A program made the translations under genes and the position numbers. This document shows, piece after piece, positions 2,252-62,402 of a DNA stretch of 64,000 bases (the first letter of the stretch is position 1; every line of letters begins with the position of its first letter). Source of the stretch: SAR202 cluster bacterium bin90 (lineage in GTDB: Bacteria; Chloroflexota; Dehalococcoidia; Lucifugimonadales; JADFKI01); contig MPND01000006.1 in NCBI GenBank assembly GCA_002238855.1, forward strand, positions 35,943 through 99,942, given 5' to 3'. The notes below the pieces were generated by a model. The model was not told the DNA's origin and ran no database searches. It saw only the letters and a list, made by a program, of their open reading frames with translations.

Positions 2252-3280
2252 ATGCTCGCTGGCAAACTTCCCATGGAACTGCTCTCGCGGCTGCTGTCCG
2301 ACATAGATGTTCGCGACCCACGCGTCGTGCTGGGCGCGCGCGCCGGTGAAGACGCCGCGCTCATCGACATGGGCGACCGCTACCTCGTTGCCAAGACCGA
2401 CCCCATAACCTTCGCCACGGACCTCATCGGATGGTATCTCGTGCAGGTCAACGCCAACGACCTCGCCTCAATGGGCGCGACTCCCCGCTGGCTTATGGCG
2501 ACCCTTCTGCTGCCGGAAGGCACCACGGAAGAGCAGACTGAGGCGATCTTCACTCAACTGCTGGAAGCGTGCAATTCGCTTGGCATCACGCTCATCGGCG
2601 GACACACCGAGATCACCTACAACCTGCCGCGTCCAATCGCAATGGGCGCAATGCTCGGCGAGGTCGCGAAGGACAGGGTGGTGCTGACATCGGGCGCTCA
2701 GGTTGGCGACAGCATCGTGCTCACGCAGGGCATCGCAATCGAAGGCACATCCATATTGGCGAGAGAAGCAGAGGACGCGCTCGCCGCTAAGGGCGTGCCG
2801 CAGCCGGCCATCGAGCGCGCGAAGTCGTTCCTGTTCACGCCGGGCATCAGCGTGGCGAAAGCCGCAACAATCGCCTGCGATACCGCAACCGTCCACGCGA
2901 TGCACGACCCCACCGAAGGCGGCGTTGCAACTGCGCTCCTAGAACTCGCCACGGCTGCGAGTGTTGGAATGACCATTGACGCAGTGCGAATACCCATATT
3001 GCCTGAGTGCCGCACCATCTGCGAAGCCCTCTCGCTAGACCCGCTCGGACTTATCGCATCCGGCGCGCTGCTCGCTACTCTGCCGCCCGCAGAAGCTGAG
3101 CAATTGGTCGCTACGCTCAATCAGGAGGGCATCCCCGCAAGCGTAATTGGCATCGTCACACCGGCATCCGAAGGCTTGCGGCTCGTATCGAACGGCACAT
3201 CGCGCCCGCTACCCACCTTCGAGCGCGATGAATTGGCCCGTTTCTTCGCCGACGATGGCACAGCTCCACAGGACGCATAG
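2252..3280 (+). CDS. AIR-synthase-related (PurM/HypE/ThiL-like) ATP-binding protein
   Basis: GEDAALID...LVAKTDPITF...VNANDLASMGATP and IGGHTE motifs are typical of the PurM-like superfamily. It has no SelD-type N-terminal Cys/Sec loop and no HypE C-terminal Cys. Confidence 0.7.
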   Translation: MLAGKLPMELLSRLLSDIDVRDPRVVLGARAGEDAALIDMGDRYLVAKTDPITFATDLIGWYLVQVNANDLASMGATPRWLMATLLLPEGTTEEQTEAIFTQLLEACNSLGITLIGGHTEITYNLPRPIAMGAMLGEVAKDRVVLTSGAQVGDSIVLTQGIAIEGTSILAREAEDALAAKGVPQPAIERAKSFLFTPGISVAKAATIACDTATVHAMHDPTEGGVATALLELATAASVGMTIDAVRIPILPECRTICEALSLDPLGLIASGALLATLPPAEAEQLVATLNQEGIPASVIGIVTPASEGLRLVSNGTSRPLPTFERDELARFFADDGTAPQDA

Positions 3281-3388: not shown

Positions 3389-4753
3389 ATGCCCTATTCT
3401 TTCAGCCGCGTCGCGGTCGGTATAATAGCCGCCGTACTGTTCGCGGCAATGCTAACCGCCTGCTCGCAGCAGCCCGAACCGCAGCCGACCGCAGTCCCCA
3501 CAGCGGTTCCATCCGCCCCCACAGCAGCCCCTGAACCAGCGCCGACCACCGCTCCGGCGCCCGCGGCGACCACTGCGCCCGCACCCACGGCTGAGCCCGC
3601 GGCTACTGCTGCACCCACTGCCGAACCCGAACCGACGGCGATGGCTGAACCGGAAGCACCGGCGAAGAACTCATTCATCATTGGAGAGGGCACAATCGCC
3701 CGCTACAAGGTGGAGGAGGAACTTGCGCGACAAGGCTTCTTTGTAGCCACTGGCGAAACGACCGAAGTGGTCGGTCGCATCTCCTTCGACGACGACGGCG
3801 GGATCGTATCCGGCGAGAGCGGCATCGTATTGCAGGCAGCCACATTCAAGACGGACAGCGACCGCCGAGACCGCTTTGTGCGCGAGCGAACGCTTCAGAC
3901 CGCCGATTTCCCGGCGATTTCCTTCATTCCGACCTCTGCGGAAGGTCTGCCGTCACCGCTGAGCGAAGCAAGTGGCACTGTAGAGTTCACCCTCACCGGC
4001 GAACTCACCATCCGCGACCAGACGCGCCCGGTTACCTGGGATGTCGTGGCTGAATTCGGAGACGAGATCAAAGGCCTCGCCTCCCTTGAAACCACGTTTG
4101 AAGAGTTCGCGATGGAGAAGCCCAGCGTGGCGATCGTCATCAGCGTTGACGATACCATTCGCCTTGAGATCGACTTTGTGGGCACCTTCGAAGAGGCCGG
4201 CGCGATAAATGTTGACGGCGCCGATGACGAAGCCTACGCGCAGCTGCTCGGAGACGAGAGCGCGCCAGTCACCGTCATAGAGTTCTCCGACTTCCAATGA
4301 CCGTACTGCCAGAGTTTCGCCCTCGGGCCGGGGCGACAGATTATCGAGGACTTCGTTGAATCGGGCGAGGTTCGATTCGCATACCGCCATTTCATCGTAA
4401 TCGGCACGGAATCGGTGTTCGCCGCAATGGGCACCGAGTGCGCCGCGGAGCAGGATAAATTCTGGGAGTTCCACGACGCAATTTTCGACAACTGGAGCGA
4501 TGGCAGGCAGAACGGCTTTGGCTTCTTGTGGCTGCAAGGCACTGCCGAATCGCTGGCAATGGATACAACTCAATTCGAAGAGTGCATCCAAAGCGGTCGA
4601 GCATTCGAGCGCGTCAGGGCAAGCCAGATTGACGGCATGGGACGCGGCATCAACAGCACACCATCCGTATTCATCAACGGCGTTCGCGTCGGAGGCGCGG
4701 ACTACGAGGCATACCGCAGCGCAATCGAAGACGCGCTCGAGAGCAGCCCGTAG
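3389..4753 (+). CDS. Lipoprotein with Ala/Pro/Thr-rich linker, YceI-like domain and C-terminal DsbA-like thioredoxin domain; predicted selenoprotein with in-frame UGA at 4298..4300
   Basis: Lipobox LTAC near the N-terminus. YceI-like segment (ATFKTDSDRRDRFVRERTLQTADFPAISF). ORFs 3389..4300 and 4415..4753 are in the same frame with no other stop between them. Read-through gives VIEFSDFQ-[TGA]-PYCQSF...ECAAEQDKFWEFHD, the DsbA-family FQCPYC context with TGA at the first Cys. Confidence 0.6.
4317..4336 (+). promoter_or_regulatory. Candidate bacterial SECIS-like hairpin downstream of the in-frame UGA
   Basis: TCGCCC (4317..4322) pairs with GGGCGA (4331..4336) around an 8-nt G-containing loop. 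It starts 17 nt after the TGA, within the spacing expected for bacterial SECIS elements. Not folded computationally. Confidence 0.3.
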
Positions 4754-4825
4754 TCGGCGGCCAGCCCGTAGATTCCACTAGCACACCAACCAGGAAATCA
4801 TCGGCTGACCACCGGGATTTAGCTG

Positions 4826-6740: not shown

Positions 6741-7598
6741 ATGAACAAATACGAAGTAGCCCTATCGTTTGCTGGAGAGCAGCGACATTACGTCGAAGAA
6801 GTGGCACGAGGACTTCAGAGCCGAGGAATCGCTGTATTCTACGATGAATTTGAGAAGGTCAGCCTGTGGGGGAAAAGCCTAACTGAGGAGTTTCATAGAA
6901 TATTCGAGAATGATGCTGGGCGAGTTGTCATGTTTATATCAAGAGACTACGTCCAGAAGGCTTGGCCAAGGCATGAACGGCGATCTGTCCTTAGCAAGGC
7001 AGTTCATGAATCAACAGAATATGTACTACCGGTGCGCTTCGACGATACCAAAGTTCCAGGACTGCCTACTGATGTCAGCTACCTGCCTGCAGAGGAATAC
7101 TCGCCCAGTGAACTCGCCGCGATGATCGGAGAGAAATTAGGTGTAACTCGGTTCGCAGCAAAAGCATCCGATGTACCTCCTCCGCGTATGACATCCCTAA
7201 CAGGTGAGGTGGTGTTTGACTACGGAAGCCATAATGGGCGTTTCGTGATAGGGCGAGATGTGCTGGAATTTGAAACAAAGTGGAGTAGGGCGAGCAACAC
7301 GAGCATTTACGTTTACAATGACCCTCCATCGATAAACGGCGTTGCGCTGGCTCCGCGTGACTGCGTGAGCATCGGGAAGGTTGTTGATGCCCAACTTCTC
7401 GATTTCACCTCGCGCAGTCGGACCCCTCAAATCGGGCAGATCGTGATGTTCCGAAACACAAAAGGCTTCTATGCAGCGGTACAGATTCTGGGCATCAAAC
7501 ACGGTGGTCGGGGTGACGACAACTATGAACTGCGCTTTCGTTACGTCATCCAATCTGATGGCTCGGACGACTTCACAAGTTTGAGCACTTCTAACTAA
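6741..7598 (+). CDS. TIR-domain protein with unassigned C-terminal domain of about 150 aa
   Basis: N-terminus YEVALSFAGEQRHYVEEVARGLQSRGIAVFYDEFE...VVMFISRDYVQKAWPRHERRSVL matches the bacterial TIR pattern (S-F-A-G start, FIS..Y...W...E with the conserved Glu). Residues about 140..285 match no family I can name. The gene and its flanks are visibly AT-richer than the neighbours. Confidence 0.75.
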   Translation: MNKYEVALSFAGEQRHYVEEVARGLQSRGIAVFYDEFEKVSLWGKSLTEEFHRIFENDAGRVVMFISRDYVQKAWPRHERRSVLSKAVHESTEYVLPVRFDDTKVPGLPTDVSYLPAEEYSPSELAAMIGEKLGVTRFAAKASDVPPPRMTSLTGEVVFDYGSHNGRFVIGRDVLEFETKWSRASNTSIYVYNDPPSINGVALAPRDCVSIGKVVDAQLLDFTSRSRTPQIGQIVMFRNTKGFYAAVQILGIKHGGRGDDNYELRFRYVIQSDGSDDFTSLSTSN

Positions 7599-11105: not shown

Positions 11106-11127
11106 AATCGCAACAATTTGATAGCTA

Positions 11128-11809
<682 letters not shown>

Positions 11810-15025: not shown

Positions 15026-15269
15026 GGTCCTCACGATGCCTCGCGCCATCAGAGACATCGGGCGAATCCACTCACAATATACAAGACTGTTAGGCGAGCG
15101 TATCGACAGTCTCTCTGCAAATCCACGTCCACGGGGCACGAAGCGACTTCGCGGAAGAACGGACTACAGTTTGCGCGTGGGTGTCTATCGCATCCTGTAC
15201 GACATAGATGACAGAGAACGAGTTATTACCGTTCACCGTGTTCAACACCGACGAGAAGTCTATCGCTAA
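15018..15269 (+). CDS. relE: RelE/ParE family type II toxin
   Basis: ANPRPRGTKRLRGRTDYSLRVGVYRILYDIDDRERVITVHRVQHRREVY matches the RelE/ParE fold signature. AT-richer than the flanks. Confidence 0.8.
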   Translation: MYRVLTMPRAIRDIGRIHSQYTRLLGERIDSLSANPRPRGTKRLRGRTDYSLRVGVYRILYDIDDRERVITVHRVQHRREVYR

Positions 15270-15297
15270 TTTTGGAAAAATGGGAAAAGACGCTAAA

Positions 15298-16407
15298 ATG
15301 ACTAACCCCGCCCACTTAGTCCTCGAAGACGGCTCCACATACCGCGGCTACGCGTTCGGCGCGCAGGCCTCCGCATTCGGCGAGGTCGTCTTCGCCACAT
15401 CTATGACCGGCTACCAGGAAATGCTCACCGACCCGTCCTTCGCCGGGCAGATCGTCGTCCCCACATACCCGCTCATAGGCAACTACGGCATCAACTCCCG
15501 CGACATCGAATCGCGCAAGGTGCAGGTCTCCGGTTTCGTCGTGCGCGAGCACAGCCTGCGCCCCAGCCACTCATTGAGCGACATGACCCTCGACGCCTAC
15601 CTGCAATCCGAGGGCATCGCGGGCATCAGCGGCGTCGACACCCGCGCCATCACCCGCCGCCTCCGCACGCAGGGCGTCATGATGGGCGCAATCGGCGTTG
15701 ACGAGCCGCCTGAGGCCACGCTCGCCCGCCTGGAGGATATGCCCGCATACGGCGACCTAGATTTCGTACGGCAGGTCTCGACCGAGAGTGCCTATGACTG
15801 GGACAATCCCCTCTGGCAGACGCCCGCACCCGAGACAACCCGACGAGTTCTCGTCAGCGACTTCGGCCTGAAATATAACATCCTGCGCATGCTGCGCTCC
15901 CGCGGTTGCGAAGTCATCGCCATGCCAGCGACCGCAACGGCGCAGGACATCCTCGACCGCAACCCGGACGGCGTTATGCTCTCACCCGGACCCGGCGACC
16001 CTGAACTTCTCGACTATGCCGTAGAGACCACGAAAGGACTGCTAGGCAAGCTGCCCGTATTCGGCATCTGCCTCGGCAACCAGGTCGTCGGACGCGCGGT
16101 TGGCGGCAGCACCTTCAAGCTCAAGTTCGGCCATCGCGGCGCGAACCACCCGGTCAAGGACCTGCAGACCGGCCTCGTGCATATCACCTCCCAGAATCAC
16201 GGATACTCGGTCGATGCCGACACTCTGCCGCAGGAGGTCGAGGTCAGCCACATCAACCTGAACGACAACACCGTCGAGGGAATCCGCCACAAGTCACTGC
16301 CGGTAATGACCATCCAGTACCACTCAGAAGCGTCGCCCGGCCCCCTCGACAACGAGTACATGTTCGACCGCTTCATGGAGATGATCGACGATACGGAGGG
16401 CAAATAA
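15298..16407 (+). CDS. carA: Carbamoyl-phosphate synthase small (glutaminase) subunit
   Basis: LVLEDGSTYRGYAFGA, MTGYQEMLTDPSFAGQIV, GICLGNQ (catalytic Cys) and HRGANHPV. Start set at ATG 15298 (MTNPAHL). Confidence 0.95.
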   Translation: MTNPAHLVLEDGSTYRGYAFGAQASAFGEVVFATSMTGYQEMLTDPSFAGQIVVPTYPLIGNYGINSRDIESRKVQVSGFVVREHSLRPSHSLSDMTLDAYLQSEGIAGISGVDTRAITRRLRTQGVMMGAIGVDEPPEATLARLEDMPAYGDLDFVRQVSTESAYDWDNPLWQTPAPETTRRVLVSDFGLKYNILRMLRSRGCEVIAMPATATAQDILDRNPDGVMLSPGPGDPELLDYAVETTKGLLGKLPVFGICLGNQVVGRAVGGSTFKLKFGHRGANHPVKDLQTGLVHITSQNHGYSVDADTLPQEVEVSHINLNDNTVEGIRHKSLPVMTIQYHSEASPGPLDNEYMFDRFMEMIDDTEGK

Positions 16408-17898: not shown

Positions 17899-20800
17899 AT
17901 GCAAACAGATTACGAAAAACCTTCCAAAGTCCTCGTCATAGGCTCCGGCCCCATCATCATCGGGCAGGCGGCGGAGTTTGACTACGCCGGCACGCAAGCA
18001 TGCAAGGCGCTCCGTGAAGAGGGAGTAACCACCGTGCTGGTCAACTCCAACCCCGCCACGATAATGACCGACGAGGACATCGCCGACATCGTCTATATCG
18101 AGCCTCTCACCGTCGAGGTGCTCAGGCGCATTATCGCCGCAGAGCGACCCGACGGCATCCTGCCCACGCTCGGCGGTCAGACCGGCCTGAACCTGGCCGT
18201 TGAACTCGCGGACGCCGGCATTTTGGACGAATACAACGTGCGACTGCTCGGCACACCCCTGAACACCATCCGCAACGCCGAGGACCGAGAGCTGTTCCGC
18301 CAGTTGCTATCAGACATCGGGGAACCCGTGCTCCCCAGCGCAATCGTCGAGTCAATGGAAGAAGCACACGAGGCACTGAAAGACCTGCCCCTACCCCTCG
18401 TCGTGCGCCCCGCATACACGCTCGGCGGCACCGGCGGCGGCATCTGCACCACGATGGACGAGTTCAACACCATCGTCGCAAGCGGTCTCGCCGCAAGCCC
18501 CATCAATCAGATTCTCCTCGAACGCTCCCTTATCGGCTGGAAGGAGATCGAGTACGAGGTGATGCGCGACGGCGCCGACAACTGCATCACCATCTGCAAC
18601 ATGGAGAACATCGACCCCATGGGCGTCCACACCGGCGACAGCATCGTCGTCGCGCCCAGCCAGACGCTGTCCGACAAGGAGTACCAGCTTCTGCGCTCCG
18701 TCAGCCTGAAGATCATCCGCGCGCTCGGCATCGAGGGCGGCTGCAACATCCAGATGGCGCTCGCAGCCGGCGATGTCGTCGCCGAGACGCTTCCCGGCGG
18801 TGGCGGCAAGGACAACGAGTACTACATCATCGAGGTCAACCCGCGCGTCAGCCGCAGTTCCGCCTTGGCAAGCAAGGCGACCGGCTATCCCATCGCCCGC
18901 GTTGCGGCAAAGATAGCCGTTGGCAAGCGCCTTGACGAGATCCCCAACGCCGTCACCCAACAGACGCTCGCCGCGTTCGAGCCCGCCCTAGACTACTGCG
19001 TGGTCAAGATACCCCGCTGGCCCTTCGACAAGTTCCCCGCCGGCGACCGCTCCATCAATACCCAAATGAAGGCGACCGGCGAGGTCATGGCAATCGACCG
19101 CTCCTTCGAAGCAGCATTCCAGAAGGCGGTGCGCTCCCTCGAAATCACCAACCGCGACATCCTCTGGGAAGACGCCGGCTGGGGAATGGACAAGCCGAGC
19201 AATGGCAACACGCCTGACACCCCTACCCCATCGCTCGAAGGATTGGACGAAGCCCGTCTTCCCCTGCACCCCAACGACGAGCGACTCTGGGCGCTGCTCT
19301 ACACCATGCGGCGCGGCGTCAGCCCCGAAGCCCTCTCCCGCGCAACCGGCATAGACCCCTGGTTCACCCGCGCCTTCCAGAACATCGCACTCATGGAGGA
19401 GGAACTGCTTTCCTCGCATCTCGACGAAGATGTACTCTGGCGCGCCAAGCGTCTGGGCTTCTCGGACGAAAAAATAGGCGAACTGACCGACCGCACGTCT
19501 CAAGAGGTGCGCGACCTGCGCCACCAGTGGGACCTCCGCCCCGTCTATAAGATGGTGGACACCTGCGCCGCCGAGTTCGAGGCTCTCACACCGTACTTCT
19601 ACAGCACCTACGAGGAAGAGAACGAAGCCACTCCGATGCAGACAAGCAAAGCGCTCGTCGTCGGCAGCGGCCCCATCCGCATCGGGCAGGGTATCGAGTT
19701 CGACTACTGCTCCGTGCATGCGGCGTGGGCGCTCAGTGAGGAAGGCGTCTCCAGCATCATCGCGAATTCTAACCCTGAGACCGTATCCACCGACTTCGAT
19801 ACCAGCGACCGCCTCTACTTCGAGCCACTCGATGAAGAGAGCGTGCTGGACATCCTGGAAAATGAGGCAGTCCCCGGAGACAATGCCGAGCTGAATTTCC
19901 CGCCCTCCATCGTGCAGTTCGGCGGCCAGACAGCAATCAACCTCTCGCAGACCCTCGACAGCGTTGAGATGCCCATTCTCGGGTCAACCGCCCGCTCCAT
20001 CGACATCGCCTCAGACCGCCACCTGTTCGAGGAGTTCCTAGCTAGGACAGGCATCCCGAATCCTCCCGGCGCAGCGGTCAGCAACCTCGAACAGGCGCTC
20101 AATGTCGCGCAGCGCGTCGGCTATCCCGTGCTGGTACGTCCCAGCTACGTACTCGGCGGCAGAGCAATGGAAATCGTGCAGAACGCCACCGAGCTTGTGC
20201 GCTACATGACCCACGCGTTCGAAGCGGGCATGGGCAGGCGCGTCCTGATAGACAAGTATTTCGAGGGCCGCGAGGTCGAGGTGGACGCCGTTTGCGACGG
20301 CGAGAACGTACTAATCCCCGGCATCATGGAGCATGTCGAGCGCGCGGGCGTCCACAGCGGCGACTCCATGGCGATATACCCCGGCGTCACGCTCACCGAA
20401 GCCGAAGTCGACACCATCGTGGACTACACAACGCGCATAGGCCGTGCCCTTCAGGTCAAGGGCCTCATGAATATCCAATATGTTGTCGTTGGCGGCGAGA
20501 CATATCGCAGTCCCGCGACAGGCGGCACAAATGGCAATCAGAATACGCAGGTATTCGTCATCGAGGTCAATCCCCGCGCCAGCCGCACTATCCCTTTCAT
20601 CTCGAAGGTAACGGGCGTGCCGATGATTCGCCTTGCCATTAAAGCGATGCTCGGCAAGAGCATCACTGAGGCAGGCTACGAGGGCGGCCTGTGGAAGCGC
20701 CAGAAGCTCGTCGCCGTGAAGGCACCCGTCTTCTCCATGTCCAAGCTCTCGGGCGTGGACACCTACCTAGGCCCTGAGATGAAGTCAACCGGCGAGGTCA

Positions 20801-21276
20801 TGGGCATCGACACCGACTTCTCTTCAGCAGTCGCCAAGGCACTGATCGCATCCGGCATGATGCTGCCCGAGAAAGGCTCCATCCTGCTCACCATCGCCGA
20901 CCGCGACAAGGCGGACGCCGTCCCAATGATTCGCCAGCTCGCCGAGGCAGGCTACGGCCTGTTCGCCACCGAGGGCACGGCAGGCATGATCCGCGGGCTT
21001 GGCATCGACGCCTTCGCCATCCCCAAGGCACACACCGGCGAGCACCCCAGCACGGTGGACATCGTCGCCGACGGCACCGTATCGGCAGTCGTAAACACCA
21101 TTGAAGGCGACCGCGAATCCCTCGAAGACGGCTTCGAAATCCGCCGCGCCGCAGTAGATCAGCGCATCCCCTGCTTCACATCCCTAGACACCGCCCGCGC
21201 CGCCGTCGAAAGCCTAATCGGAGGCGCCGCCAACTACAGCATCAAGCCCCTGCCGGAGTATCGGAAGCAAGAGTAG
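17899..21276 (+). CDS. carB: Carbamoyl-phosphate synthase large subunit
   Basis: 1125 aa with duplicated ATP-grasp halves (VLVIGSGPIIIGQAAEFDYAGTQ and ALVVGSGPIRIGQGIEFDYC) and a C-terminal MGS-like domain. Confidence 0.97.
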   Translation: MQTDYEKPSKVLVIGSGPIIIGQAAEFDYAGTQACKALREEGVTTVLVNSNPATIMTDEDIADIVYIEPLTVEVLRRIIAAERPDGILPTLGGQTGLNLAVELADAGILDEYNVRLLGTPLNTIRNAEDRELFRQLLSDIGEPVLPSAIVESMEEAHEALKDLPLPLVVRPAYTLGGTGGGICTTMDEFNTIVASGLAASPINQILLERSLIGWKEIEYEVMRDGADNCITICNMENIDPMGVHTGDSIVVAPSQTLSDKEYQLLRSVSLKIIRALGIEGGCNIQMALAAGDVVAETLPGGGGKDNEYYIIEVNPRVSRSSALASKATGYPIARVAAKIAVGKRLDEIPNAVTQQTLAAFEPALDYCVVKIPRWPFDKFPAGDRSINTQMKATGEVMAIDRSFEAAFQKAVRSLEITNRDILWEDAGWGMDKPSNGNTPDTPTPSLEGLDEARLPLHPNDERLWALLYTMRRGVSPEALSRATGIDPWFTRAFQNIALMEEELLSSHLDEDVLWRAKRLGFSDEKIGELTDRTSQEVRDLRHQWDLRPVYKMVDTCAAEFEALTPYFYSTYEEENEATPMQTSKALVVGSGPIRIGQGIEFDYCSVHAAWALSEEGVSSIIANSNPETVSTDFDTSDRLYFEPLDEESVLDILENEAVPGDNAELNFPPSIVQFGGQTAINLSQTLDSVEMPILGSTARSIDIASDRHLFEEFLARTGIPNPPGAAVSNLEQALNVAQRVGYPVLVRPSYVLGGRAMEIVQNATELVRYMTHAFEAGMGRRVLIDKYFEGREVEVDAVCDGENVLIPGIMEHVERAGVHSGDSMAIYPGVTLTEAEVDTIVDYTTRIGRALQVKGLMNIQYVVVGGETYRSPATGGTNGNQNTQVFVIEVNPRASRTIPFISKVTGVPMIRLAIKAMLGKSITEAGYEGGLWKRQKLVAVKAPVFSMSKLSGVDTYLGPEMKSTGEVMGIDTDFSSAVAKALIASGMMLPEKGSILLTIADRDKADAVPMIRQLAEAGYGLFATEGTAGMIRGLGIDAFAIPKAHTGEHPSTVDIVADGTVSAVVNTIEGDRESLEDGFEIRRAAVDQRIPCFTSLDTARAAVESLIGGAANYSIKPLPEYRKQE

Positions 21277-42099: not shown

Positions 42100-42789
42100 A
42101 TGCTAGTCCGCAACGGTCTCTTGGTAACGAGCGCCGCGCTCATGCTCGTTACGCTATACATGGTCTTCCTCTGGGTGCCCACCGAGCTTAACCTCGGTGT
42201 GTCCCAGCGCATCTTCTATTTCCACGTTCCCCTCGGATGGCTCGGCATGATCTCCATCGTCGTCGTAGCCGTCGCCAGCATCGTTCACCTCATCACCGGC
42301 AGCCAGTGGTGGGACGACCTCGCCTACACTACGGCAGAGTTGGGCGTCGTCTTCGCCAGCCTCATCCTTGTAACCGGCGTCATCTGGGCGCGCGGCGATC
42401 TCGGCTGGTGGTGGACCTGGGACGCCAAGCTCACCACAACCCTCGTCCTCTGGTTCATATATGTCGGCTACCTGATGGTTCGCGCCTACTCCCCGAAGGG
42501 CTCCCAGAGCGCGCGCTTCGCATCGGTAATCGCACTGTTCGGAGCGATAGACGCACCCATCATCTACATGGCAACCGTCTGGTGGAGTTCCGCCCATCCC
42601 GAACTCAACGTAGGCCCTGTCGCCAACGACCGCGACGCCATCGGCTCCAACAAGATTTACTTGACGCTCCTCGTCGCGGTCTTAGCCTTCACGATCTTCT
42701 ACATACACCTCGTCGTCGAACGCTTCCACCTGCGCCGCGCCGAATCAGCACTCGACAGACTGCACCAGTCATTCGCGGCACGCTTCTAG
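42100..42789 (+). CDS. ccmC: Cytochrome c maturation heme exporter protein CcmC
   Basis: Trp-rich WGxxWxWD-type motif LGWWWTWDAKL, flanking His residues, and 6 TM segments. Confidence 0.85.
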   Translation: MLVRNGLLVTSAALMLVTLYMVFLWVPTELNLGVSQRIFYFHVPLGWLGMISIVVVAVASIVHLITGSQWWDDLAYTTAELGVVFASLILVTGVIWARGDLGWWWTWDAKLTTTLVLWFIYVGYLMVRAYSPKGSQSARFASVIALFGAIDAPIIYMATVWWSSAHPELNVGPVANDRDAIGSNKIYLTLLVAVLAFTIFYIHLVVERFHLRRAESALDRLHQSFAARF

Positions 42790-42803
42790 CACAATAATTT
42801 ATT

Positions 42804-42851
42804 CCTTCCCCCTCGATGGGGGAAGGTCAGGATGGGGGTGAAATCCTCATC
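42804..42851. repeat. REP-like composite repeat, family A
   Basis: CCTTCCCCC-TCGAT-GGGGGAAGG (42804..42826), then TCAGGATGGGGGTGAAATCCTCATC. Confidence 0.7.
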
Positions 42852-42881
42852 TGGAATCTAGCCCCCGTTCCGGAGACGCAA

Positions 42882-43175
42882 ATGCGAAGCATCATCATCG
42901 CAGCAGCAGCCATCATCCTTCTGGCAGCCACGCTCGCCCCCGTTGCCGTGGCAGCCGCCTACGACGGCGCACCCATAGTAAGCTCCACGGTTGAAACGCC
43001 CGCCCAGCAGCAACGCGGCGAAGCCGAACTACCCTGGCTTTTCGCCGTCTATGTCATCACCTGGGCAGCATTCTTCGCCTACGTCTTCATCATGTCCCGC
43101 AGACAGCGCGAAATGCAGCGCGAAATCGACACCCTAAAACGCGCCCTCGATGCTAAAATAGACCCGGAGCAATAG
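42882..43175 (+). CDS. ccmD: CcmD-like small heme exporter protein
   Basis: Single TM helix LFAVYVITWAAFFAYVFIM followed by basic SRRQREMQRE. Its position between ccmC and ccmE supports the call. Start set at ATG 42882. Confidence 0.6.
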   Translation: MRSIIIAAAAIILLAATLAPVAVAAAYDGAPIVSSTVETPAQQQRGEAELPWLFAVYVITWAAFFAYVFIMSRRQREMQREIDTLKRALDAKIDPEQ

Positions 43176-43176
43176 T

Positions 43177-43210
43177 CCCCTCTCCCTGAGGGAGAGGGTT
43201 AGGGCGAGGG
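43177..43210. repeat. REP-like repeat, family A-prime
   Basis: CCCTCTCCC-TGA-GGGAGAGGG-TTAGGGCGAGGGG. Confidence 0.7.
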
Positions 43211-43269
43211 GAAATGTAATTAGTGGCCTCAAGCACTGAAGTCTCACACACTTTAATGGGCGATCAGAT

Positions 43270-43773
43270 ATGACCTACGACACGGCACAACCCCAAATGG
43301 AAGAAGAATCCCCCGGCCTATTCGCCGGCAAAGGCAAGTTCATCATCGCCGCCGCGGTGCTGCTCGGTGCGCTCTTCTACCTTGGCTTCATCGCCTTCCA
43401 GAGCGCGACCGTGTACTCCTACACCGTAACCGAGCTAACCGGCCTCGGCCCCACGCCCGAAGGCAAGCTCGTGCGCGTAAGCGGCAGTCTCGTTGAGGAC
43501 ACCTTTGTCCGACCCGACGGCTCCACCATGGCGCACTTCACCCTCACAGACAAAGAAGACGGCGGTATACAGTTCGTCTCCGCCCAGCATGACGGCGTCC
43601 TACCCGACCTCTTCTTCAACCCACACTCCGAGATCATCCTCGAAGGCACATACCGCCCCGACGGCGTCTTCGACAGCCAGAACGTCCTCGTCAAGTGCCC
43701 CTCCAAGTACATCGAAGCCACCGATGACGGCTCATACGACGAGGCCGACTACCCCAAGGAACAGGTCAACTAA
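43270..43773 (+). CDS. ccmE: Cytochrome c maturation heme chaperone CcmE, CxxxY variant
   Basis: N-terminal TM anchor and OB-fold segment GKLVRVSGSLV. The heme-binding position reads VLVKCPSKY (Cys in place of the canonical His of HxxxY). Confidence 0.75.
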   Translation: MTYDTAQPQMEEESPGLFAGKGKFIIAAAVLLGALFYLGFIAFQSATVYSYTVTELTGLGPTPEGKLVRVSGSLVEDTFVRPDGSTMAHFTLTDKEDGGIQFVSAQHDGVLPDLFFNPHSEIILEGTYRPDGVFDSQNVLVKCPSKYIEATDDGSYDEADYPKEQVN

Positions 43774-43813
43774 ATCCTGTCTATCCTGTTAACCCCTGTC
43801 CCCGCGTCTAGCT

Positions 43814-45412
43814 CTAGACCGCAATCGCCCCATCCACATACAGCAACTCCAGCGCCTGCCACGCCGCCTTGGCTGCCTCCACCGCCATCCCCGGCTCCAT
43901 CCCCTCGCACAGTGACGCAATCACCTCCGAAGCCGTCCCCTGACCATCCAGCCTGTTCAACAGATGCGACACCAGCCCGCTGCACGGAATTCCTTCAGGG
44001 TGCGCGTCCGTAACCAGACCCACTCCCCACACGAACCTGTCCTCCTCCAGCACCGGCTGCCTCTGCAGCCGCACCCCATCCGCAAGACGCAGCCGCGCTC
44101 CGTCCGGCAGTCCCTCTTCACGCCTTCGTACTCGCTCCGATTCCACAGCCGTCACACTATCCCCGAACGCCGGCGGCAGCAGCCCCTTCGACAGCACCGC
44201 CCGCTCATAACCCCGCGCAGGCTGACCAGCGACCAGCTGTATGAACGACTGTCTAGGCGTCAGCAGCGGGTCGTCCTCCAGCAGCCGCCGCGCCTCCCAG
44301 AAGTACGAGTCCGCAGTGCGATTGCTCGAATAAAACAGCCGCGCCAGCTCCCGGAAATGCCCATACTCCCTGTAATACATCAGCTCGTACATCTTCCCCG
44401 CAGGTCCCGCAATCGTCGCGTCCTCCAGCGCGGACGCCACCACAACCGACGCCAGCGCAGCATACGTCAGCGCCAGATGCACCCCCGACGAAAACAGCGG
44501 ATCAACGAAGCATCCCGCATCCCCAACCAATATGTACCCCGGCCCCGACAGCGACCTGCACCGATAAGACCAGTCCCGCACCACCTCCGGCTCCGACACC
44601 ATCTTCGCGCCTTCCAGCATCCCCACAAGATACGGCGCAGCCGCAATCTGCGCTTCCAGGAAGCCCCGCGCACCCTGTTCCCGTATCCCGCGCTGTCCCG
44701 CCTCCGCGTCCACAACCGCACCCACGCTCGACCAGCCTTCCCGCAGAGGAATATTCCACAGCCACCCGTCCGCCTGAGACTCGATCAGGATGTTTCCCGC
44801 ATCCGGCTCCGGCAGCCGCTTCCCGCCCTCGTAGTACCCATACACCGCCAGGTTGCGAAAGAACTCATCCCACTCACGCAGCCCAAGTTGCCGCGCAAGC
44901 ACACCGCTCTGCCCGCTCGCATCCACCACATACCCTGCTGGCAACTCCACCTCGCCCGACGAACCGTCAACCGCCCGGCACCGTACCGCAATGGCACTCC
45001 CGCCCTCATCGAATGCCACCCTCGTAACCTGCCACCCCTCGCGCACATCCACACCCGACCGCCGCGCATTATTCAGCAGTATCGCGTCAAACTCAGGCCG
45101 CCACACCTGGTACGAGTGCGGATATGTCGCGTGCGTCTCCCTGAAGTACCAGCTCCACGGCTCCCGCTCGGTGCCCCAGATCATCGTCGCGCCCGGCTTC
45201 ACCGTGAACCCCGCCTGCCGCACCTCGTCCATCACGCCAAGGCTCTCAAGGATAGGAATGCTCCCCGGCAGCAGCGACTCCCCCACATGCGCGCGCGGAA
45301 AACGCTCCCGCTCCAGCAGCACGACATCCAGCCCCATGCGCGCAAGCAACGCGCTGACGCACGCCCCCGCAGGCCCGCCCCCGATAACTATGATTGGCTT
45401 ATCAACCGGCAT
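43814..45412 (-). CDS. Flavin-dependent halogenase-like FAD oxidoreductase (PltA/CmlS-like)
   Basis: GGGPAG FAD motif, GESLLPG, GFTVKPGATMIWG (conserved Lys context), WxWxIP motif GWLWNIP, and FVDPLFSSGVHLA. Confidence 0.7.
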   Translation of the reverse strand: MPVDKPIIVIGGGPAGACVSALLARMGLDVVLLERERFPRAHVGESLLPGSIPILESLGVMDEVRQAGFTVKPGATMIWGTEREPWSWYFRETHATYPHSYQVWRPEFDAILLNNARRSGVDVREGWQVTRVAFDEGGSAIAVRCRAVDGSSGEVELPAGYVVDASGQSGVLARQLGLREWDEFFRNLAVYGYYEGGKRLPEPDAGNILIESQADGWLWNIPLREGWSSVGAVVDAEAGQRGIREQGARGFLEAQIAAAPYLVGMLEGAKMVSEPEVVRDWSYRCRSLSGPGYILVGDAGCFVDPLFSSGVHLALTYAALASVVVASALEDATIAGPAGKMYELMYYREYGHFRELARLFYSSNRTADSYFWEARRLLEDDPLLTPRQSFIQLVAGQPARGYERAVLSKGLLPPAFGDSVTAVESERVRRREEGLPDGARLRLADGVRLQRQPVLEEDRFVWGVGLVTDAHPEGIPCSGLVSHLLNRLDGQGTASEVIASLCEGMEPGMAVEAAKAAWQALELLYVDGAIAV

Positions 45413-45434
45413 AAGAAATTACGCGTCACAAGCA

Positions 45435-45461
45435 AATGGAGAGGAAAATATCCTCTCCATT
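45435..45461. repeat. Perfect 10-bp hairpin related to the second half of family A repeats; possible terminator of the CDGSH gene
   Basis: AATGGAGAGG-AAAATAT-CCTCTCCATT. The same GATGGAG...CTCCATC module occurs at 37907..37931 and 53434..53467. Confidence 0.55.
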
Positions 45462-45487
45462 CTACAAATTATCTACAGCCGTTAAAG

Positions 45488-45688
45488 CTACGCCTCGAAC
45501 CCTGCCGGGCGGTGCGTCCCGTCACAGAACGGCTTGTTGTCCGACTTACCGCAGCGGCACAGGAACACCATTTCGCTGTCCCCGTCGATGGCAATCTCAT
45601 TGCCGTCCGCATCCATAATCTTGATGCCACCCTGCACCATCAGGGGCCCATTCTTCCGTGTCGTAACCGTCGTATCTGCCATTTTCAT
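45488..45688 (-). CDS. CDGSH iron-sulfur domain protein
   Basis: CRCGKSDNKPFCDGTH is the CDGSH 2Fe-2S motif. Start set at ATG 45688, because the longer ORF would translate a REP repeat. Confidence 0.8.
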   Translation of the reverse strand: MKMADTTVTTRKNGPLMVQGGIKIMDADGNEIAIDGDSEMVFLCRCGKSDNKPFCDGTHRPAGFEA

Positions 45689-45720
45689 TCCCCTTTCTCG
45701 TTCTTTTGCTCTCAATAGTC

Positions 45721-45756
45721 CCCTCTCCCCGCGGGAGAGGGTTAGGATGGGGGTGA
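45721..45756. repeat. REP-like repeat, family A-prime
   Basis: CCCTCTCCC-CGC-GGGAGAGGG-TTAGGATGGGGGTGA. Confidence 0.7.
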
Positions 45757-45777
45757 TGTAGTGCCCCATCAATCCTA

Positions 45778-56823: not shown

Positions 56824-57204
56824 TTGCAACAGACCATGCCCCGCACCACTATCGCCATCGCCGCCATCTTCGGCCTCATCTCCGTCATTGCGGGCGCAGC
56901 AGGCACGCACGCCCTCCGCGACACCCTTGAAGCAAGCTCCCTCAGCACCTTCGAGACAGCCGCCCGCTTCCAGATGTACCACGCACTAGCACTGCTAGCC
57001 GTCGGCATCCTCTCCATGCGCTGGCAGACCCGCATCCTAACCGCATCCGCCGCCCTCTTCACCCTCGGCATCCTGCTCTTCAGCGGCAGCCTCTACATGC
57101 TCGCCCTCACCGGCATCGGCATCTTCGGCGCAATCGCCCCCATCGGCGGCATCTCCCTAATGGCAGCCTGGGCATCCCTAGCCCTAGCCGCCCTCCGCCG
57201 CTGA
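56824..57204 (+). CDS. DUF423 family membrane protein
   Basis: 126 aa with 4 TM segments and the FETAARFQMYHALALL motif typical of DUF423/YgdD. Confidence 0.7.
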   Translation: MQQTMPRTTIAIAAIFGLISVIAGAAGTHALRDTLEASSLSTFETAARFQMYHALALLAVGILSMRWQTRILTASAALFTLGILLFSGSLYMLALTGIGIFGAIAPIGGISLMAAWASLALAALRR

Positions 57205-57280
57205 CATAGCACCAATTCTCCTTGTGTTATGCTTCCCTGTGTAGACGATGGAATGGGAAAGCAATTAAGAGGAAAGAGCA

Positions 57281-57487
57281 ATGCAACTCACGGTGACTCT
57301 TTACCAGGACGAGGACGAGGTCTGGGTCGTCGAATGTCCGGCTATACCCGGCTGTGTAAGCCAAGGTCAAACAAGGTCAGAGGCTCTCAACAATATTCGC
57401 GAGGCAATTACTCTATGCCTCGAAGTACGCGCCGAGCAAGGCTACCCACTGACCGTAGAGACCGAGCAGGTGGAAGTGGCGCTATAA
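57281..57487 (+). CDS. hicB: HicB-family antitoxin
   Basis: VTLYQDEDEVWVVECPAIPGCVSQGQTRSEALNNIREAITLCLE is the HicB N-terminal fold pattern. Confidence 0.8.
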   Translation: MQLTVTLYQDEDEVWVVECPAIPGCVSQGQTRSEALNNIREAITLCLEVRAEQGYPLTVETEQVEVAL

Positions 57488-57708
57488 TGCCTCCACTTCC
57501 CAACCTGAGTGGCAGGGAAGCCGTTAGGAACTTCCAGCGTTTTGGTTGGAATGTAGCTCGGCAAAGGGGCAGTCACATTATCCTGACAAAGCAGGGCGAA
57601 ATTGCAACCCTGTCTGTCCCGAACCACAGGCGTGTCTCTAAAGGGACCCTACGAACTCTGATTCGTTCAGCAAGACTCACAGTTGACGAGTTCTGCGACG
57701 CTCTTTGA
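57487..57708 (+). CDS. hicA: HicA-family toxin
   Basis: LSGREAVRNFQRFGWNVARQRGSHIILTK...VPNH...GTLRTLIRSA. The ATG overlaps the hicB stop by 1 nt. It is hidden inside the longer track ORF 57229..57708. Confidence 0.8.
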   Translation: MPPLPNLSGREAVRNFQRFGWNVARQRGSHIILTKQGEIATLSVPNHRRVSKGTLRTLIRSARLTVDEFCDAL

Positions 57709-61892: not shown

Positions 61893-62402
61893 ATGCGATA
61901 TGCATTCCCATGCGACATTGTTTTGGATCACGAAGAGGCAAAGGCTACGGGACGAGAAGCCTATGTGATAACTTTTCCCGATGTTCCCGAAGCGATCTCA
62001 GGCGCCTGGTCCTGGCAAGAGGCTTTGGAGATGGCAGAGGATTGCTTGGCGGTCGCCCTTAGCATTTATGTTGATAAGTGCGAAGACATCCCTACACCCA
62101 GCCCACTCGCCGATGGCCAAGTCCTCATCGCTGTTCCCATCATCGTAGCCGCAAAGCTCACCCTCTACACAGCCATGCGCGAACAGGACCTGAGCGCCCA
62201 AGACCTCAAAGCCAAGTTGGATATGTCCGATCACACTATCCAAACGCTCCTAACCCCTCATCGCTTCTCTCACATCAGCCAGATCGAGCGCGCACTCAAG
62301 GCCGTTGGCCGCTCCCTGATAGTCGAAGACATGGAAACAGGTCTGACGAAACCCTCTCATCATCCCATTATGAAAGAGCGAGATGCAGCACCGGCAGCAT
62401 AG
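61893..62402 (+). CDS. hicB: HicB-family antitoxin with C-terminal HTH
   Basis: YVITFPDVPEAISGAWSWQEALEMAEDCLAVAL (HicB fold), followed by an HTH-like segment TAMREQDLSAQDLKAKLDMSDHTIQTLL. Confidence 0.75.
   Translation: MRYAFPCDIVLDHEEAKATGREAYVITFPDVPEAISGAWSWQEALEMAEDCLAVALSIYVDKCEDIPTPSPLADGQVLIAVPIIVAAKLTLYTAMREQDLSAQDLKAKLDMSDHTIQTLLTPHRFSHISQIERALKAVGRSLIVEDMETGLTKPSHHPIMKERDAAPAA

What the first reader, a model, noticed from the sequence alone, without database searches (positions are those of the whole stretch)
3389..4753. In-frame TGA at the first Cys of a DsbA CPYC motif: probable selenocysteine-containing YceI-DsbA fusion lipoprotein
**Reading frame.** ORF 3389..4300 ends at TGA 4298..4300. 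ORF 4415..4753 is in the same frame (4415-3389 = 1026 nt), and no other stop lies between 4301 and 4753.

**Read-through product.** Reading through gives ...APVTVIEFSDFQ-[TGA]-PYCQSFALGPGRQIIEDFVESGEVRFAYRHF...ECAAEQDKFWEFHD... This is the DsbA-like thioredoxin signature (EFxDFQCPYC) with the TGA exactly at the nucleophilic Cys of CxxC. That position is the classic Sec/Cys interchange site in thiol oxidoreductase selenoproteins.

**Supporting feature.** A GC hairpin (4317..4322 / 4331..4336) starts 17 nt downstream, where a bacterial SECIS would sit.

**Architecture.** The combination of lipobox, Ala/Pro/Thr linker, YceI-like domain and Sec-DsbA is itself unusual.
Basis: partly seen in the sequence, partly recalled or inferred. 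Interest (0 to 1): 0.75.

Follow-up and report, generated by a model that had tools for sequence, protein, structure and literature searches.

The report
Selenocysteine YceI–DsbA fusion lipoprotein gene
A gene that databases split in two at a TGA "stop" is almost certainly one gene for a membrane-anchored selenoprotein, a lipid-binding YceI barrel fused to a disulfide-forming DsbA-like enzyme whose active-site cysteine is replaced by selenocysteine; the enzyme type is known, but this fusion has not been described.

Summary
ORF 3389..4300 ends at TGA 4298..4300 and the same frame stays open to TAG 4754..4756. The read-through protein is lipobox + Ala/Pro/Thr linker + YceI + Thioredoxin_4/DsbA, with the TGA at the first Cys of CPYC.

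The selenocysteine reading is strongly supported:
- 118 of 120 database homologs stop at the same column.
- All 13 relatives with DNA in hand carry TGA there, never another stop or a Cys codon, followed by 148-151 open codons.
- The downstream part has dN/dS 0.12-0.18 at dS above 1.
- Distant relatives have Cys in that column.
- Synonymous sites in codons +1..+13 are almost frozen (p = 2e-5) over a 7-bp hairpin with a G-containing loop, 16 nt after the UGA.
- The same stem sits in standalone Sec-DsbA genes only about 44% identical in protein, and those overlap a VKOR gene.
- TGA is otherwise a normal stop in the window.

Not verified: selA, selB, selD and tRNA-Sec are absent from the 64 kb, and I could not search the whole genome. 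Published work shows only that some Dehalococcoidia use selenocysteine heavily.

UxxC DsbA/DsbG-like selenoproteins are known. The YceI fusion is a new variant, and public databases annotate it as a truncated "YceI family protein".

The parts
3389..4756 (+). Complete selenoprotein coding sequence (454 codons plus TAG stop), read through TGA 4298..4300
   Evidence: Single open frame apart from the TGA. Both halves are conserved in relatives.
3389..3463 (+). Lipoprotein signal peptide ending in lipobox L-T-A-C (Cys25 = 3461..3463)
   Evidence: Sequence MPYSFSRVAVGIIAAVLFAAMLTAC. M1, R7, A24, C25 and S26 are invariant in 28 homologs. The weak N-terminal match to the lipoprotein model NF041057 covers aa 16-89.
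3464..3670 (+). Low-complexity Ala/Pro/Thr/Glu-rich linker (about aa 26-94), variable in length among homologs
   Evidence: Translation. Truncated homologs range from 276 to 363 aa and differ mainly here.
3737..4177 (+). YceI-like lipid/polyisoprenoid-binding beta-barrel domain (aa 117-263)
   Evidence: PF04264, 65.9 bits against a cutoff of 23.7. Closest solved structure is T. thermophilus TT1927b, 1WUB.
4244..4732 (+). DsbA/BdbD-type thioredoxin-fold domain (aa 286-448) interrupted by the TGA
   Evidence: PF13462, 101.5 bits, and PF01323, 39.7 bits. Best PDB match is B. subtilis BdbD 3EU3, E = 5e-20. NF041057 scores 145.5 bits.
4298..4309 (+). Active-site motif U-P-Y-C; TGA 4298..4300 is the predicted selenocysteine codon (residue 304)
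   Evidence: TGA in all 13 relatives with DNA in hand. Cys in the aligned column of P0258, P0240, P0254, P0261 and P0180.
4317..4336 (+). Predicted bacterial SECIS hairpin: stem 4317-4323 / 4330-4336 (7 bp), loop 4324-4329 CGGGCC; starts 16 nt after the UGA
   Evidence: Centroid and consensus fold. 100% of cells paired, one compensatory C-G to U-A change (L008) and one U-A to U-G change (window). Single occurrence in the window. Same stem in L102 and L103.
4301..4339 (+). Block of suppressed synonymous variation (codons +1..+13 after the UGA) covering the hairpin
   Evidence: Mean codon entropy is 0.15 here against 1.11 elsewhere, permutation p = 2e-5. It is the lowest sliding window in the region.
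4658..4663 (+). Thr-Pro of the conserved cis-proline loop of the thioredoxin fold (…INSTPSVFING…)
   Evidence: Aligns with the ATPTIYVN loop of BdbD in the HMMER alignment. Conserved in all relatives.
4754..4756 (+). True stop codon (TAG)
   Evidence: Relatives end at the equivalent place with TAA or TAG, never TGA.

Best explanation
3389..4756 is one gene for an extracytoplasmic, lipid-anchored selenoprotein.

Steps shown or strongly supported:
- The in-frame UGA at 4298 is conserved, and the downstream DsbA-like sequence is translated in this frame.
- A conserved RNA element lies 16 nt after the UGA, where a bacterial SECIS would sit.

Steps inferred:
- During translation the hairpin 4317-4336 acts as a SECIS. 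It recruits SelB carrying Sec-tRNA(Sec) to the UGA, so selenocysteine is inserted as the nucleophilic residue of a U-P-Y-C redox motif.
- After export and lipidation at Cys25, a long flexible Ala/Pro/Thr linker holds a YceI beta-barrel and a DsbA/BdbD-type thioredoxin domain at the outer face of the cytoplasmic membrane.
- The DsbA domain most likely works as a thiol-disulfide oxidoreductase, forming a selenylsulfide in place of the usual disulfide and acting on exported proteins.
- Its standalone sister genes are translationally coupled to VKOR, the quinone-dependent re-oxidase of DsbA in bacteria that lack DsbB. This points to an oxidase role tied to membrane quinones.
- The YceI domain, from a family that binds polyisoprenoid or quinone-type lipids, probably places the enzyme at the membrane lipid/quinone pool or binds such a lipid.
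- When Sec insertion fails, for example under selenium shortage, termination at UGA would release a 303-aa YceI-only lipoprotein.
For: (1) Conserved stop at one column. 118 of 120 homolog clusters (55-98% identity) end at ...E[F/Y]SDFQ.
(2) In 11 Dehalococcoidia/Chloroflexota genomes from GTDB representatives, plus L100 and L101, the codon is always TGA. It is followed by 148-151 open codons ending in TAA or TAG.
(3) Downstream dN/dS is 0.12-0.18 with dS 1.0-1.5.
(4) Cys homologs exist...FSDFQCPYC... in P0258, P0240, P0254 and P0261, and CSHC in P0180.
(5) There is an RNA-level constraint. In codons +1..+13, GCC, CTC, GGG and GGG are each fixed in all 12 sequences and CGA in 11 of 12. Four-fold and six-fold degenerate codons elsewhere show 3-5 variants. 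Entropy is 0.15 against 1.11, p = 2e-5.
(6) The consensus fold is a 7-bp stem with a 6-nt G-containing loop. All cells pair, with one compensatory and one wobble change. [quoted passage not shown]
(7) Standalone membrane-anchored Sec-DsbA genes (L102 with UVHC, L103/L104 with UPHC; about 44-46% protein identity) match 21-23 of 24 hairpin nucleotides, against about 64% identity elsewhere. Each overlaps a VKOR gene.
(8) TGA is a normal stop for 15 other long ORFs in the window, and none of them has a meaningful in-frame extension.
(9) The domain is closest to the curated seleno-lipoprotein family NF041057 (145.5 bits). A 2026 review lists that family as the UxxC 'DsbG-like' selenoprotein (PMC13188914).
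(10) Dehalococcoidia MAGs are among the most selenoprotein-rich bacteria in BSepDB, with 46-49 genes. That database lists only species carrying the Sec pathway (PMC13326102).
(11) The domains are supported by Pfam and by BdbD 3EU3 and TT1927b 1WUB.
Against: - No selA, selB, selD or tRNA-Sec was found in the 64-kb window or in any fetched locus. The rest of the genome could not be searched.
- Folding 4298-4370 alone is no more stable than shuffled sequence (z = +1.21).
- Covariation support is thin because the element is nearly invariant: one compensatory pair, and 38 of 500 shuffles reach the observed score.
- Nothing here shows selenium in the protein.
- The roles assigned to the DsbA and YceI domains rest on homology and on gene neighbourhood in sister genes, not on any test.
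- No VKOR or DsbB is present in this window.
Confidence: 0.88

Rival explanations
1. The UGA is recoded, but to something other than selenocysteine. One route is Cys delivered by a SelB-like factor with a Sec-type tRNA charged with cysteine. Another is low-level near-cognate or suppressor read-through giving Trp, Cys or Arg. The hairpin would then be a general read-through stimulator.
For: The sequence evidence shows recoding and an RNA element but does not identify the inserted residue. No Sec machinery was seen in the sequence available. From my own knowledge, not tested here, UGA-to-Cys systems with selC-like tRNAs have been proposed in some bacteria.
Against: - The site is the nucleophilic Cys of a CxxC motif, the classic Sec/Cys exchange position, and the closest curated family is a known seleno-lipoprotein.
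- If Cys were wanted, TGC or TGT would do. Yet no relative uses it across dS above 1.
- Trp or Arg at this position would destroy the redox site.
- The class contains selenoprotein-rich members.
Confidence: 0.06
2. TGA is a genuine stop. The locus is a YceI lipoprotein gene followed by a separate, internally initiated or decaying DsbA-like fragment, which is how gene callers annotate it.
For: Automatic annotation calls a 303-aa 'YceI family protein' plus a 108-133-aa Thioredoxin_4 ORF. A YceI-only lipoprotein does exist in a related genome, L017. Sec insertion is never fully efficient, so the truncated product is probably made as well.
Against: - The 38 codons between the TGA and the first called start (GTG 4415), including P-Y-C and FALGPGRQIIEDF, are conserved in frame in every relative.
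- The internally started fragment would lack a signal peptide, the first beta strand and the whole CxxC motif.
- dN/dS of 0.12-0.18 at saturated dS rules out a pseudogene.
- The stop is always TGA, never TAA or TAG, whereas the real terminal stop varies between TAA and TAG.
Confidence: 0.03
3. Sequencing or assembly error, or genome-wide reassignment of UGA (genetic code 4 or 25).
For: None beyond the bare presence of an in-frame TGA.
Against: Five independent assemblies and 13 other genomes read TGA. Sixteen of 65 long ORFs in the window end in TGA at their natural ends, for example pyrR overlapping pyrB and the full-length ETF and amidase-neighbour genes. No other gene has an in-frame TGA.
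Confidence: 0.01

Closest known systems
NCBIfam NF041057, 'Rcas_1661 family thioredoxin-like (seleno)lipoprotein', listed as the UxxC 'DsbG-like protein' selenoprotein family in PMC13188914
   Same: A Chloroflexota-type lipoprotein with a thioredoxin-fold domain and a Sec/Cys-x-x-Cys motif. It is the best curated match: 145.5 bits over profile positions 73-246, plus a weak match of the signal/linker region.
   Different: The score is below the family cutoff of 190 bits. This protein has a YceI domain of about 170 aa inserted between the linker and the thioredoxin domain, which that 247-position model does not contain.
DsbA-like UxxC selenoproteins from marine metagenomes (Sargasso Sea, PMC1088965; 'DsbA-like protein form 1', PF01323/COG2761)
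   Same: Sec replaces the first Cys of the CxxC in a DsbA-like fold. A SECIS hairpin with a G in the loop lies just after the UGA.
   Different: Those proteins were assigned to COG2761/PF01323 (FrnE-type). This one matches PF13462 far better (101.5 bits against 39.7) and is fused to YceI. No fusion is mentioned in those papers.
Bacillus subtilis BdbD (PDB 3EU3) and Gram-positive/actinobacterial DsbA-MdbA enzymes that partner with BdbC or VKOR (e.g. M. tuberculosis Rv2969c, PDB 4K6X/4JR4)
   Same: Closest solved structures by sequence (E = 5e-20 for BdbD). Shared features are a membrane-tethered extracytoplasmic DsbA-type oxidase, a CPxC-type motif and an aligned cis-Pro loop. Sister Sec forms are coupled to VKOR, as mycobacterial DsbA is (titles and abstracts).
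   Different: Those enzymes use Cys, not Sec. They are anchored by a transmembrane helix or a simple lipobox and have no YceI domain.
YceI family (PF04264), e.g. T. thermophilus TT1927b polyisoprenoid-binding protein (PDB 1WUB); E. coli YceI
   Same: The N-terminal globular domain matches PF04264 above threshold and TT1927b weakly. It is a secreted or lipoprotein form, as in L017.
   Different: Known YceI proteins are single-domain. Here the barrel is covalently joined to a redox domain. Whether it binds a ligand was not tested.

Membership tests
Bacterial selenoprotein gene (SelB/SECIS-dependent UGA decoding) | In-frame UGA conserved among orthologs, with the coding frame continuing downstream | tested here: met
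   TGA in 13 of 13 relatives with the motif, followed by 148-151 open codons. dN/dS is 0.12-0.18.
Bacterial selenoprotein gene (SelB/SECIS-dependent UGA decoding) | Cys-containing homologs align Cys with the UGA | tested here: met
   P0258, P0240, P0254, P0261, P0249 and P0180 have C at the aligned column. BdbD CPSC also aligns there.
Bacterial selenoprotein gene (SelB/SECIS-dependent UGA decoding) | Stem-loop immediately 3' of the UGA with a small apical loop containing G (bacterial SECIS) | tested here: met
   7-bp stem and 6-nt loop CGGGCC, 16 nt after the UGA. Synonymous-site suppression, p = 2e-5. Conserved in paralogous genes. Covariation itself is weak, with one compensatory pair.
Bacterial selenoprotein gene (SelB/SECIS-dependent UGA decoding) | selA, selB, selD and tRNA-Sec present in the same genome | not testable with these tools
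   None in the window or the fetched loci. Support is class-level only, from BSepDB.
Bacterial selenoprotein gene (SelB/SECIS-dependent UGA decoding) | Selenium demonstrated in the protein | not testable with these tools
   Needs 75Se labelling or mass spectrometry.
NF041057 Rcas_1661 family thioredoxin-like (seleno)lipoprotein | Whole-protein score at or above the curated cutoff (190 bits) | tested here: not met
   145.5 bits for the read-through protein and 137.1 bits for the domain alone. The standalone L102 form also falls short at 143.1 bits.
NF041057 Rcas_1661 family thioredoxin-like (seleno)lipoprotein | Lipoprotein signal followed by a thioredoxin-like domain with U/CxxC | tested here: met
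   Lipobox LTAC, and UPYC in a Thioredoxin_4 domain. An extra YceI domain lies between them.
DsbA/BdbD-type thiol-disulfide oxidoreductase (PF13462 Thioredoxin_4) | Pfam domain above gathering score, CxxC-type motif, cis-Pro loop | tested here: met
   101.5 bits against a cutoff of 23.2. The UPYC motif and the T-P loop align to BdbD.
DsbA/BdbD-type thiol-disulfide oxidoreductase (PF13462 Thioredoxin_4) | Membrane re-oxidase partner (DsbB/BdbC/VKOR) | tested here: inconclusive
   VKOR overlaps the standalone Sec-DsbA genes in L102 and L103/L104. No VKOR is in this window, and the rest of the genome was not searchable.
YceI family (PF04264) | Pfam domain above gathering score | tested here: met
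   65.9 bits against a cutoff of 23.7, aa 117-263. Weak match to 1WUB.
YceI family (PF04264) | Binds a polyisoprenoid or quinone-type lipid in the barrel | not testable with these tools
   Needs a structure of the fused protein or a binding assay. The structure tool would not accept the read-through sequence.
SelD (selenophosphate synthetase), for the upstream gene 2252..3280 | Score above the TIGR00476 cutoff and an N-terminal Gly-rich loop with Cys/Sec before the catalytic Lys | tested here: not met
   81.5 bits against a cutoff of 125; thiL and hypE score higher, also below their cutoffs. The N-terminus MLAGKLP has Gly where SelD has Cys/Sec (the SelD motif is from my own knowledge).

The most novel reading that the evidence does not exclude
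The YceI barrel holds a membrane isoprenoid quinone and presents it to the neighbouring U-P-Y-C site. The fusion would then be a self-contained, quinone-coupled selenoenzyme: a DsbA that is re-oxidised without DsbB or VKOR, or conversely a selenol-based quinone or lipid-hydroperoxide reductase at the membrane surface.

A second layer is possible. Selenium supply would decide whether the gene yields a YceI-only lipoprotein (termination at the UGA) or the full redox enzyme.

The idea rests on one contrast. Standalone sister genes have a transmembrane anchor and a translationally coupled VKOR. The fusion has replaced both with a lipobox, a linker and YceI, and has no VKOR nearby.
Probability: 0.12. 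Interest if true: 0.75.

Novelty: new variant of a known kind. Interest (0 to 1): 0.5.

Why it matters
- Annotation. Hundreds of database entries for this family are cut at the UGA and named 'YceI family protein' or 'hypothetical protein', with an orphan Thioredoxin_4 fragment behind them. Recognising the gene corrects the annotation of an abundant Dehalococcoidia clade and adds a domain architecture to the bacterial selenoproteome.
- Biology. The gene joins a lipid/quinone-binding barrel to a selenium-based disulfide catalyst at the outer membrane face of bacteria that lack a classical periplasm. Its sister genes are coupled to VKOR. Together these give a testable handle on how oxidative protein folding is wired to the quinone pool in Chloroflexota, and on why Sec rather than Cys is kept at this site.
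- RNA. The almost invariant 24-nt hairpin, shared by paralogs that are only about 45% identical in protein, is a clean candidate for the SelB recognition element of this lineage.

Tried and rejected
- Upstream AIRS gene (2252..3280) as SelD: rejected. It scores below cutoff, thiL and hypE score higher, and it has no Cys/Sec loop.
- Sec machinery in the window: SelA-, SelB- and SelD-sized ORFs turned out to be SbcC, MFS, adenylosuccinate lyase, a flavoprotein, ETF, amidase, GSDH, metallo-beta-lactamase-fold, epimerase, aminotransferase and others. Precomputed gene calls for about 40 kb of the window showed nothing either. One look-up found no record.
- tRNA-Sec: ARAGORN found no tRNA in the window or in 13 loci. 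Rfam gave only the PyrR leader, and only sub-threshold noise around the hairpin.
- Single-sequence folding of 4298-4370: not better than shuffles, so folding energy alone is not used as evidence.
I ran the 150-aa downstream segment instead.
- Metagenome scan for more family DNA: returned only distant YceI proteins (50% identity or less), none fused to DsbA. It added nothing to the SECIS alignment.
- Other selenoprotein candidates in the window: TGA at 57202 (+) and 33430 (-) looked possible but are adjacent or antisense ordinary genes.
- Genome-wide UGA reassignment: rejected on stop-codon usage.
- Literature search for YceI plus selenoprotein: zero papers. BSepDB supplements are not held as text.
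Full report
**1. The observation**

ATG 3389 opens a frame that meets TGA at 4298..4300. The same frame then continues without any stop to TAG 4754..4756.

The conceptual product has these parts:
- a lipoprotein signal peptide ending in the lipobox L-T-A-C (Cys25);
- an Ala/Pro/Thr-rich linker of about 70 residues;
- a YceI domain (PF04264, 65.9 bits, aa 117-263);
- a Thioredoxin_4/DSBA domain (PF13462, 101.5 bits, aa 286-448).

The TGA falls exactly where the first Cys of the CPYC motif should be (...VIEFSDFQ-U-PYC...). Five independent assemblies of the identical gene, from ENA, NCBI, Logan and JGI, all read TGA. A base-calling error is therefore excluded.

**2. Is the stop conserved?**

A search of 5.8 billion proteins with the read-through sequence gave 549 hits. 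All of the best 120 (55-98% identity) cover only the N-terminal two thirds of the query. Of these, 118 end at the same column...E[F/Y]SDFQ. One of the two exceptions ends in FSDFL at the same column and the other looks frameshifted.

I fetched DNA for 12 species-level relatives. All are Dehalococcoidia or Chloroflexota MAGs, and several are closed chromosomes. Two further divergent members were added later.
- In every one that has the motif, the codon is TGA, never TAA, TAG, TGC or TGT.
- The frame then stays open for 148-151 codons and ends in TAA or TAG.
- Downstream of the TGA, dN/dS is 0.12-0.18 while dS is 1.0-1.5.

That segment is therefore translated in this frame and is not a decaying remnant. 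The 38 codons between the TGA and the first start a gene caller can find (GTG 4415) are among the best conserved. They include the second Cys of the redox motif.

The one related locus without the motif, L017, encodes a YceI-only lipoprotein with no DsbA part. This shows what the ancestral unfused YceI gene looks like.

**3. Cys in the aligned column**

I ran the exhaustive search of 1.84 billion cluster representatives with the 150-aa downstream segment. It found the family's own orphan fragments and then standalone membrane-anchored proteins of 220-300 aa at 40-46% identity. These read ...[FY][SA]DFQ-C-P[YF]C... (P0258, P0240, P0254, P0261, P0249) or ...FGDFQ-C-SHC... (P0180). The closest solved structure, B. 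subtilis BdbD, aligns its CPSC there as well.

No single-stretch hit of about 450 aa appeared, so no Cys version of the YceI-DsbA fusion was seen. None of 80 distant YceI loci from metagenomes carries a DsbA domain.

**4. The RNA element**

RNAfold's centroid for 4298-4370 is a single hairpin: stem 4317-4323 / 4330-4336, loop CGGGCC. The folding energy of the whole 73 nt is no better than shuffled sequence (z = +1.21), so I do not lean on energy.

The comparative signal is much stronger.
- Across 10-12 sequences whose synonymous sites are otherwise saturated, the codons for A-L-G-P-G-R-Q are GCC, CTC, GGG, CC(A/G), GGG, CGA, CAG almost without exception.
- Four-fold and six-fold degenerate codons elsewhere in the gene use 3-5 different codons.
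- Mean codon entropy is 0.15 inside codons +1..+13 and 1.11 outside, permutation p = 2e-5.
- The least variable sliding window in the whole region is exactly codons +1..+12.
- GGG and CGA are not the Gly and Arg codons this gene prefers elsewhere (mostly GGC and CGC/CGT). Codon bias therefore does not explain the freeze.

RNAalifold recovers the same 7-bp stem with all cells paired. One sequence (L008) carries a double change, C-G to U-A. It is achieved by a synonymous TTC to TTT change plus an Arg to Gln replacement. The window itself carries U-A to U-G. With so little variation the covariation statistics are weak: 38 of 500 shuffles reach the observed score.

[quoted passage not shown] Here the stem starts 16 nt after the UGA and the loop has three G. 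The numerical limits of the bSECISearch model that I remember were not re-checked.

**5. Sister genes**

Two more distant downstream-fragment hits, P0164 and P0212, led to loci L102 and L103/L104. Each has three features:
- a short ORF encoding a transmembrane anchor that ends ...VEFGDFQ;
- a TGA, followed by VHC... or PHC... and a full DsbA-like domain;
- a VKOR gene (PF07884) that overlaps the stop codon.

These proteins are only about 44-46% identical to the window's domain. Even so, 21-23 of the 24 hairpin nucleotides are identical, against about 64% identity in the rest of the first 180 nt. Third-codon positions match 7 of 8 inside the hairpin and 23 of 51 outside. In L103 only the last two loop bases differ (CGGGCC to CGGGGU).

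Two things follow. The hairpin is selected as RNA in independent gene contexts, as expected for a lineage's SelB-binding site. And this thioredoxin domain belongs functionally with VKOR, which makes it a DsbA-type oxidase.

**6. Alternatives**

- *Genome-wide UGA reassignment* is excluded. Sixteen of 65 long ORFs in the window end in TGA at sensible places, and none of the other 15 has a meaningful in-frame continuation. The two further TGA sites that looked possible are ordinary neighbouring or antisense genes.
- *A two-gene or pseudogene reading* is contradicted by section 2.
- *Insertion of a residue other than Sec* cannot be excluded from sequence alone. It is unlikely: the site is a CxxC nucleophile, a Cys codon would be one mutation away yet is never used, and the closest curated family is a seleno-lipoprotein.

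**7. What could not be shown**

No selA, selB, selD or tRNA-Sec lies in the window or in any fetched locus.

The AIRS-domain gene immediately upstream (2252..3280) is syntenic in all relatives and was a tempting SelD candidate. It scores below cutoff for selD (81.5 against 125). It scores higher, though still below cutoff, for thiL and hypE. It also has Gly where SelD has its catalytic Cys/Sec.

Class-level support comes from the literature. BSepDB lists only species that carry the Sec pathway, and two Dehalococcoidia MAGs are in its top ten with 49 and 46 selenoprotein genes (PMC13326102). Marine Dehalococcoidia single-cell genomes encode Sec-containing formate dehydrogenases (PMC5736913).

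**8. Comparison with what is known**

UxxC selenoproteins with DsbA-like and DsbG-like folds have been known since 2004-2005 (PMC1088965; PMC13188914). The nearest curated model is NF041057, the 'Rcas_1661 family thioredoxin-like (seleno)lipoprotein', which the 2026 review calls DsbG-like.
- The read-through protein scores 145.5 bits against it, below the 190-bit cutoff.
- The standalone VKOR-linked form scores 143.1 bits.

Both are therefore sister lineages of that family, not members.

The closest structures are BdbD (3EU3) and Gram-positive or actinobacterial DsbA/MdbA proteins for the C-terminal domain. For the YceI domain it is the polyisoprenoid-binding TT1927b (1WUB).

What is new is the architecture: a YceI barrel between the lipid anchor and a Sec-DsbA domain.
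- No paper in the searchable library mentions YceI together with selenoproteins.
- No NCBIfam model covers the fusion.
- Public names for the family are 'YceI family protein', 'polyisoprenoid-binding protein YceI' or 'hypothetical protein', all for the truncated product.
- I could not check whether BSepDB already holds these genes under a DsbA/DsbG-like heading.

**9. Mechanism**

*Shown or strongly supported:*
- one gene;
- a conserved UGA at the redox nucleophile;
- translation continuing downstream;
- a conserved RNA hairpin at the SECIS position;
- lipoprotein targeting signals;
- YceI and DsbA/BdbD-type domains.

*Inferred:*
- SelB-dependent Sec insertion;
- a selenylsulfide-forming oxidase activity on exported proteins, linked to the quinone pool as in the VKOR-coupled sister genes;
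- a lipid or quinone-binding or positioning role for YceI;
- co-production of a YceI-only lipoprotein when Sec insertion fails.

On the last point, bacterial recoding is partial, about 30-40% in E. coli according to the abstract of PMC4513850 listed. All members of the family keep a second conserved Cys pair in the helical insert (…TEC… and …EEC…). It may be a structural disulfide like those in actinobacterial DsbA proteins. That comparison is from my own knowledge and was not tested.

**10. Verdict**

It is a new variant of a known kind of selenoprotein. It matters for annotation and raises a moderately interesting mechanistic question about the YceI-DsbA-quinone link. Interest is 0.5. Confidence that this is a Sec-decoding gene is about 0.88.

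Noticed in passing
window 2252..3280 (+): An AIR-synthase-family gene (AIRS + AIRS_C) lies directly upstream of the selenoprotein gene in every relative. It scores below cutoff for thiL, hypE and selD alike, and its N-terminus MLAGKLP has Gly where SelD has Cys/Sec. Its function is unknown. It is not the selenophosphate synthetase one might hope for next to a selenoprotein.
   Followed up: partly
L102 9818..10896; L103 7..1114; L104 14..941: Standalone membrane-anchored Sec-DsbA genes (UVHC / UPHC) are split by gene callers into a 56-60-aa ORF and a 150-aa ORF. Each overlaps a VKOR gene and carries the same SECIS stem as the window's gene. This looks like a second mis-annotated selenoprotein family, a Sec-DsbA/VKOR operon.
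   Followed up: partly
L017 2974..3825: A related Dehalococcoidia chromosome (OZ220464.1) encodes a YceI-only lipoprotein (283 aa, about 50% identical) with no DsbA domain. It is the likely unfused ancestor type.
   Followed up: partly
window 4439..4441 and 4583..4585 (Cys351 and Cys399 of the read-through protein): A second pair of cysteines (…GTEC… and …FEEC…) is conserved in all fusion, standalone Sec and Cys forms. It may be a structural disulfide in the helical insert of the DsbA domain.
   Followed up: no
window 11127..11247 (+), with genes to about 21276: A PyrR-binding leader (Rfam RF00515, 58.8 bits) lies ahead of a pyrimidine operon. Pfam hits support pyrR (Pribosyltran), pyrB (OTCace) and pyrC (Amidohydro_1/DHOase). 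I did not scan the next two ORFs (15208..16407 and 17899..21276); from position and size they are probably carA and carB. The TTG start listed for pyrR at 11181 overlaps the leader, so the real start is probably near 11244.
   Followed up: no
window 6741..7598 (+); 21.3-24.7 kb; 34.3-35.1 kb; 57229..57708; 61893..62402: The window holds several defence or toxin-antitoxin-type genes: a TIR_2 domain protein, a HepT/nucleotidyltransferase pair next to an SbcC-like ATPase (863 aa), a PIN/RHH pair, and HicA-like and HicB-like genes.
   Followed up: no
window 42100..47619: A fused ETF beta-alpha protein (613 aa), a CDGSH zinc-finger protein and a FixC/halogenase-like flavoprotein sit together on the minus strand. 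On the plus strand next to them are the cytochrome c maturation genes: 42100..42789 (229 aa) matches in size the Cytochrom_C_asm (CcmC-type) gene of L019, and 43270..43773 (167 aa) matches its CcmE gene. This suggests an electron-transfer module beside extracytoplasmic haem handling.
   Followed up: no
window 4298..4301: The base after the UGA is C in all fusion genes (UGA-C). From general knowledge this is a weak termination context in bacteria and would favour recoding. L102 has UGA-G.
   Followed up: no
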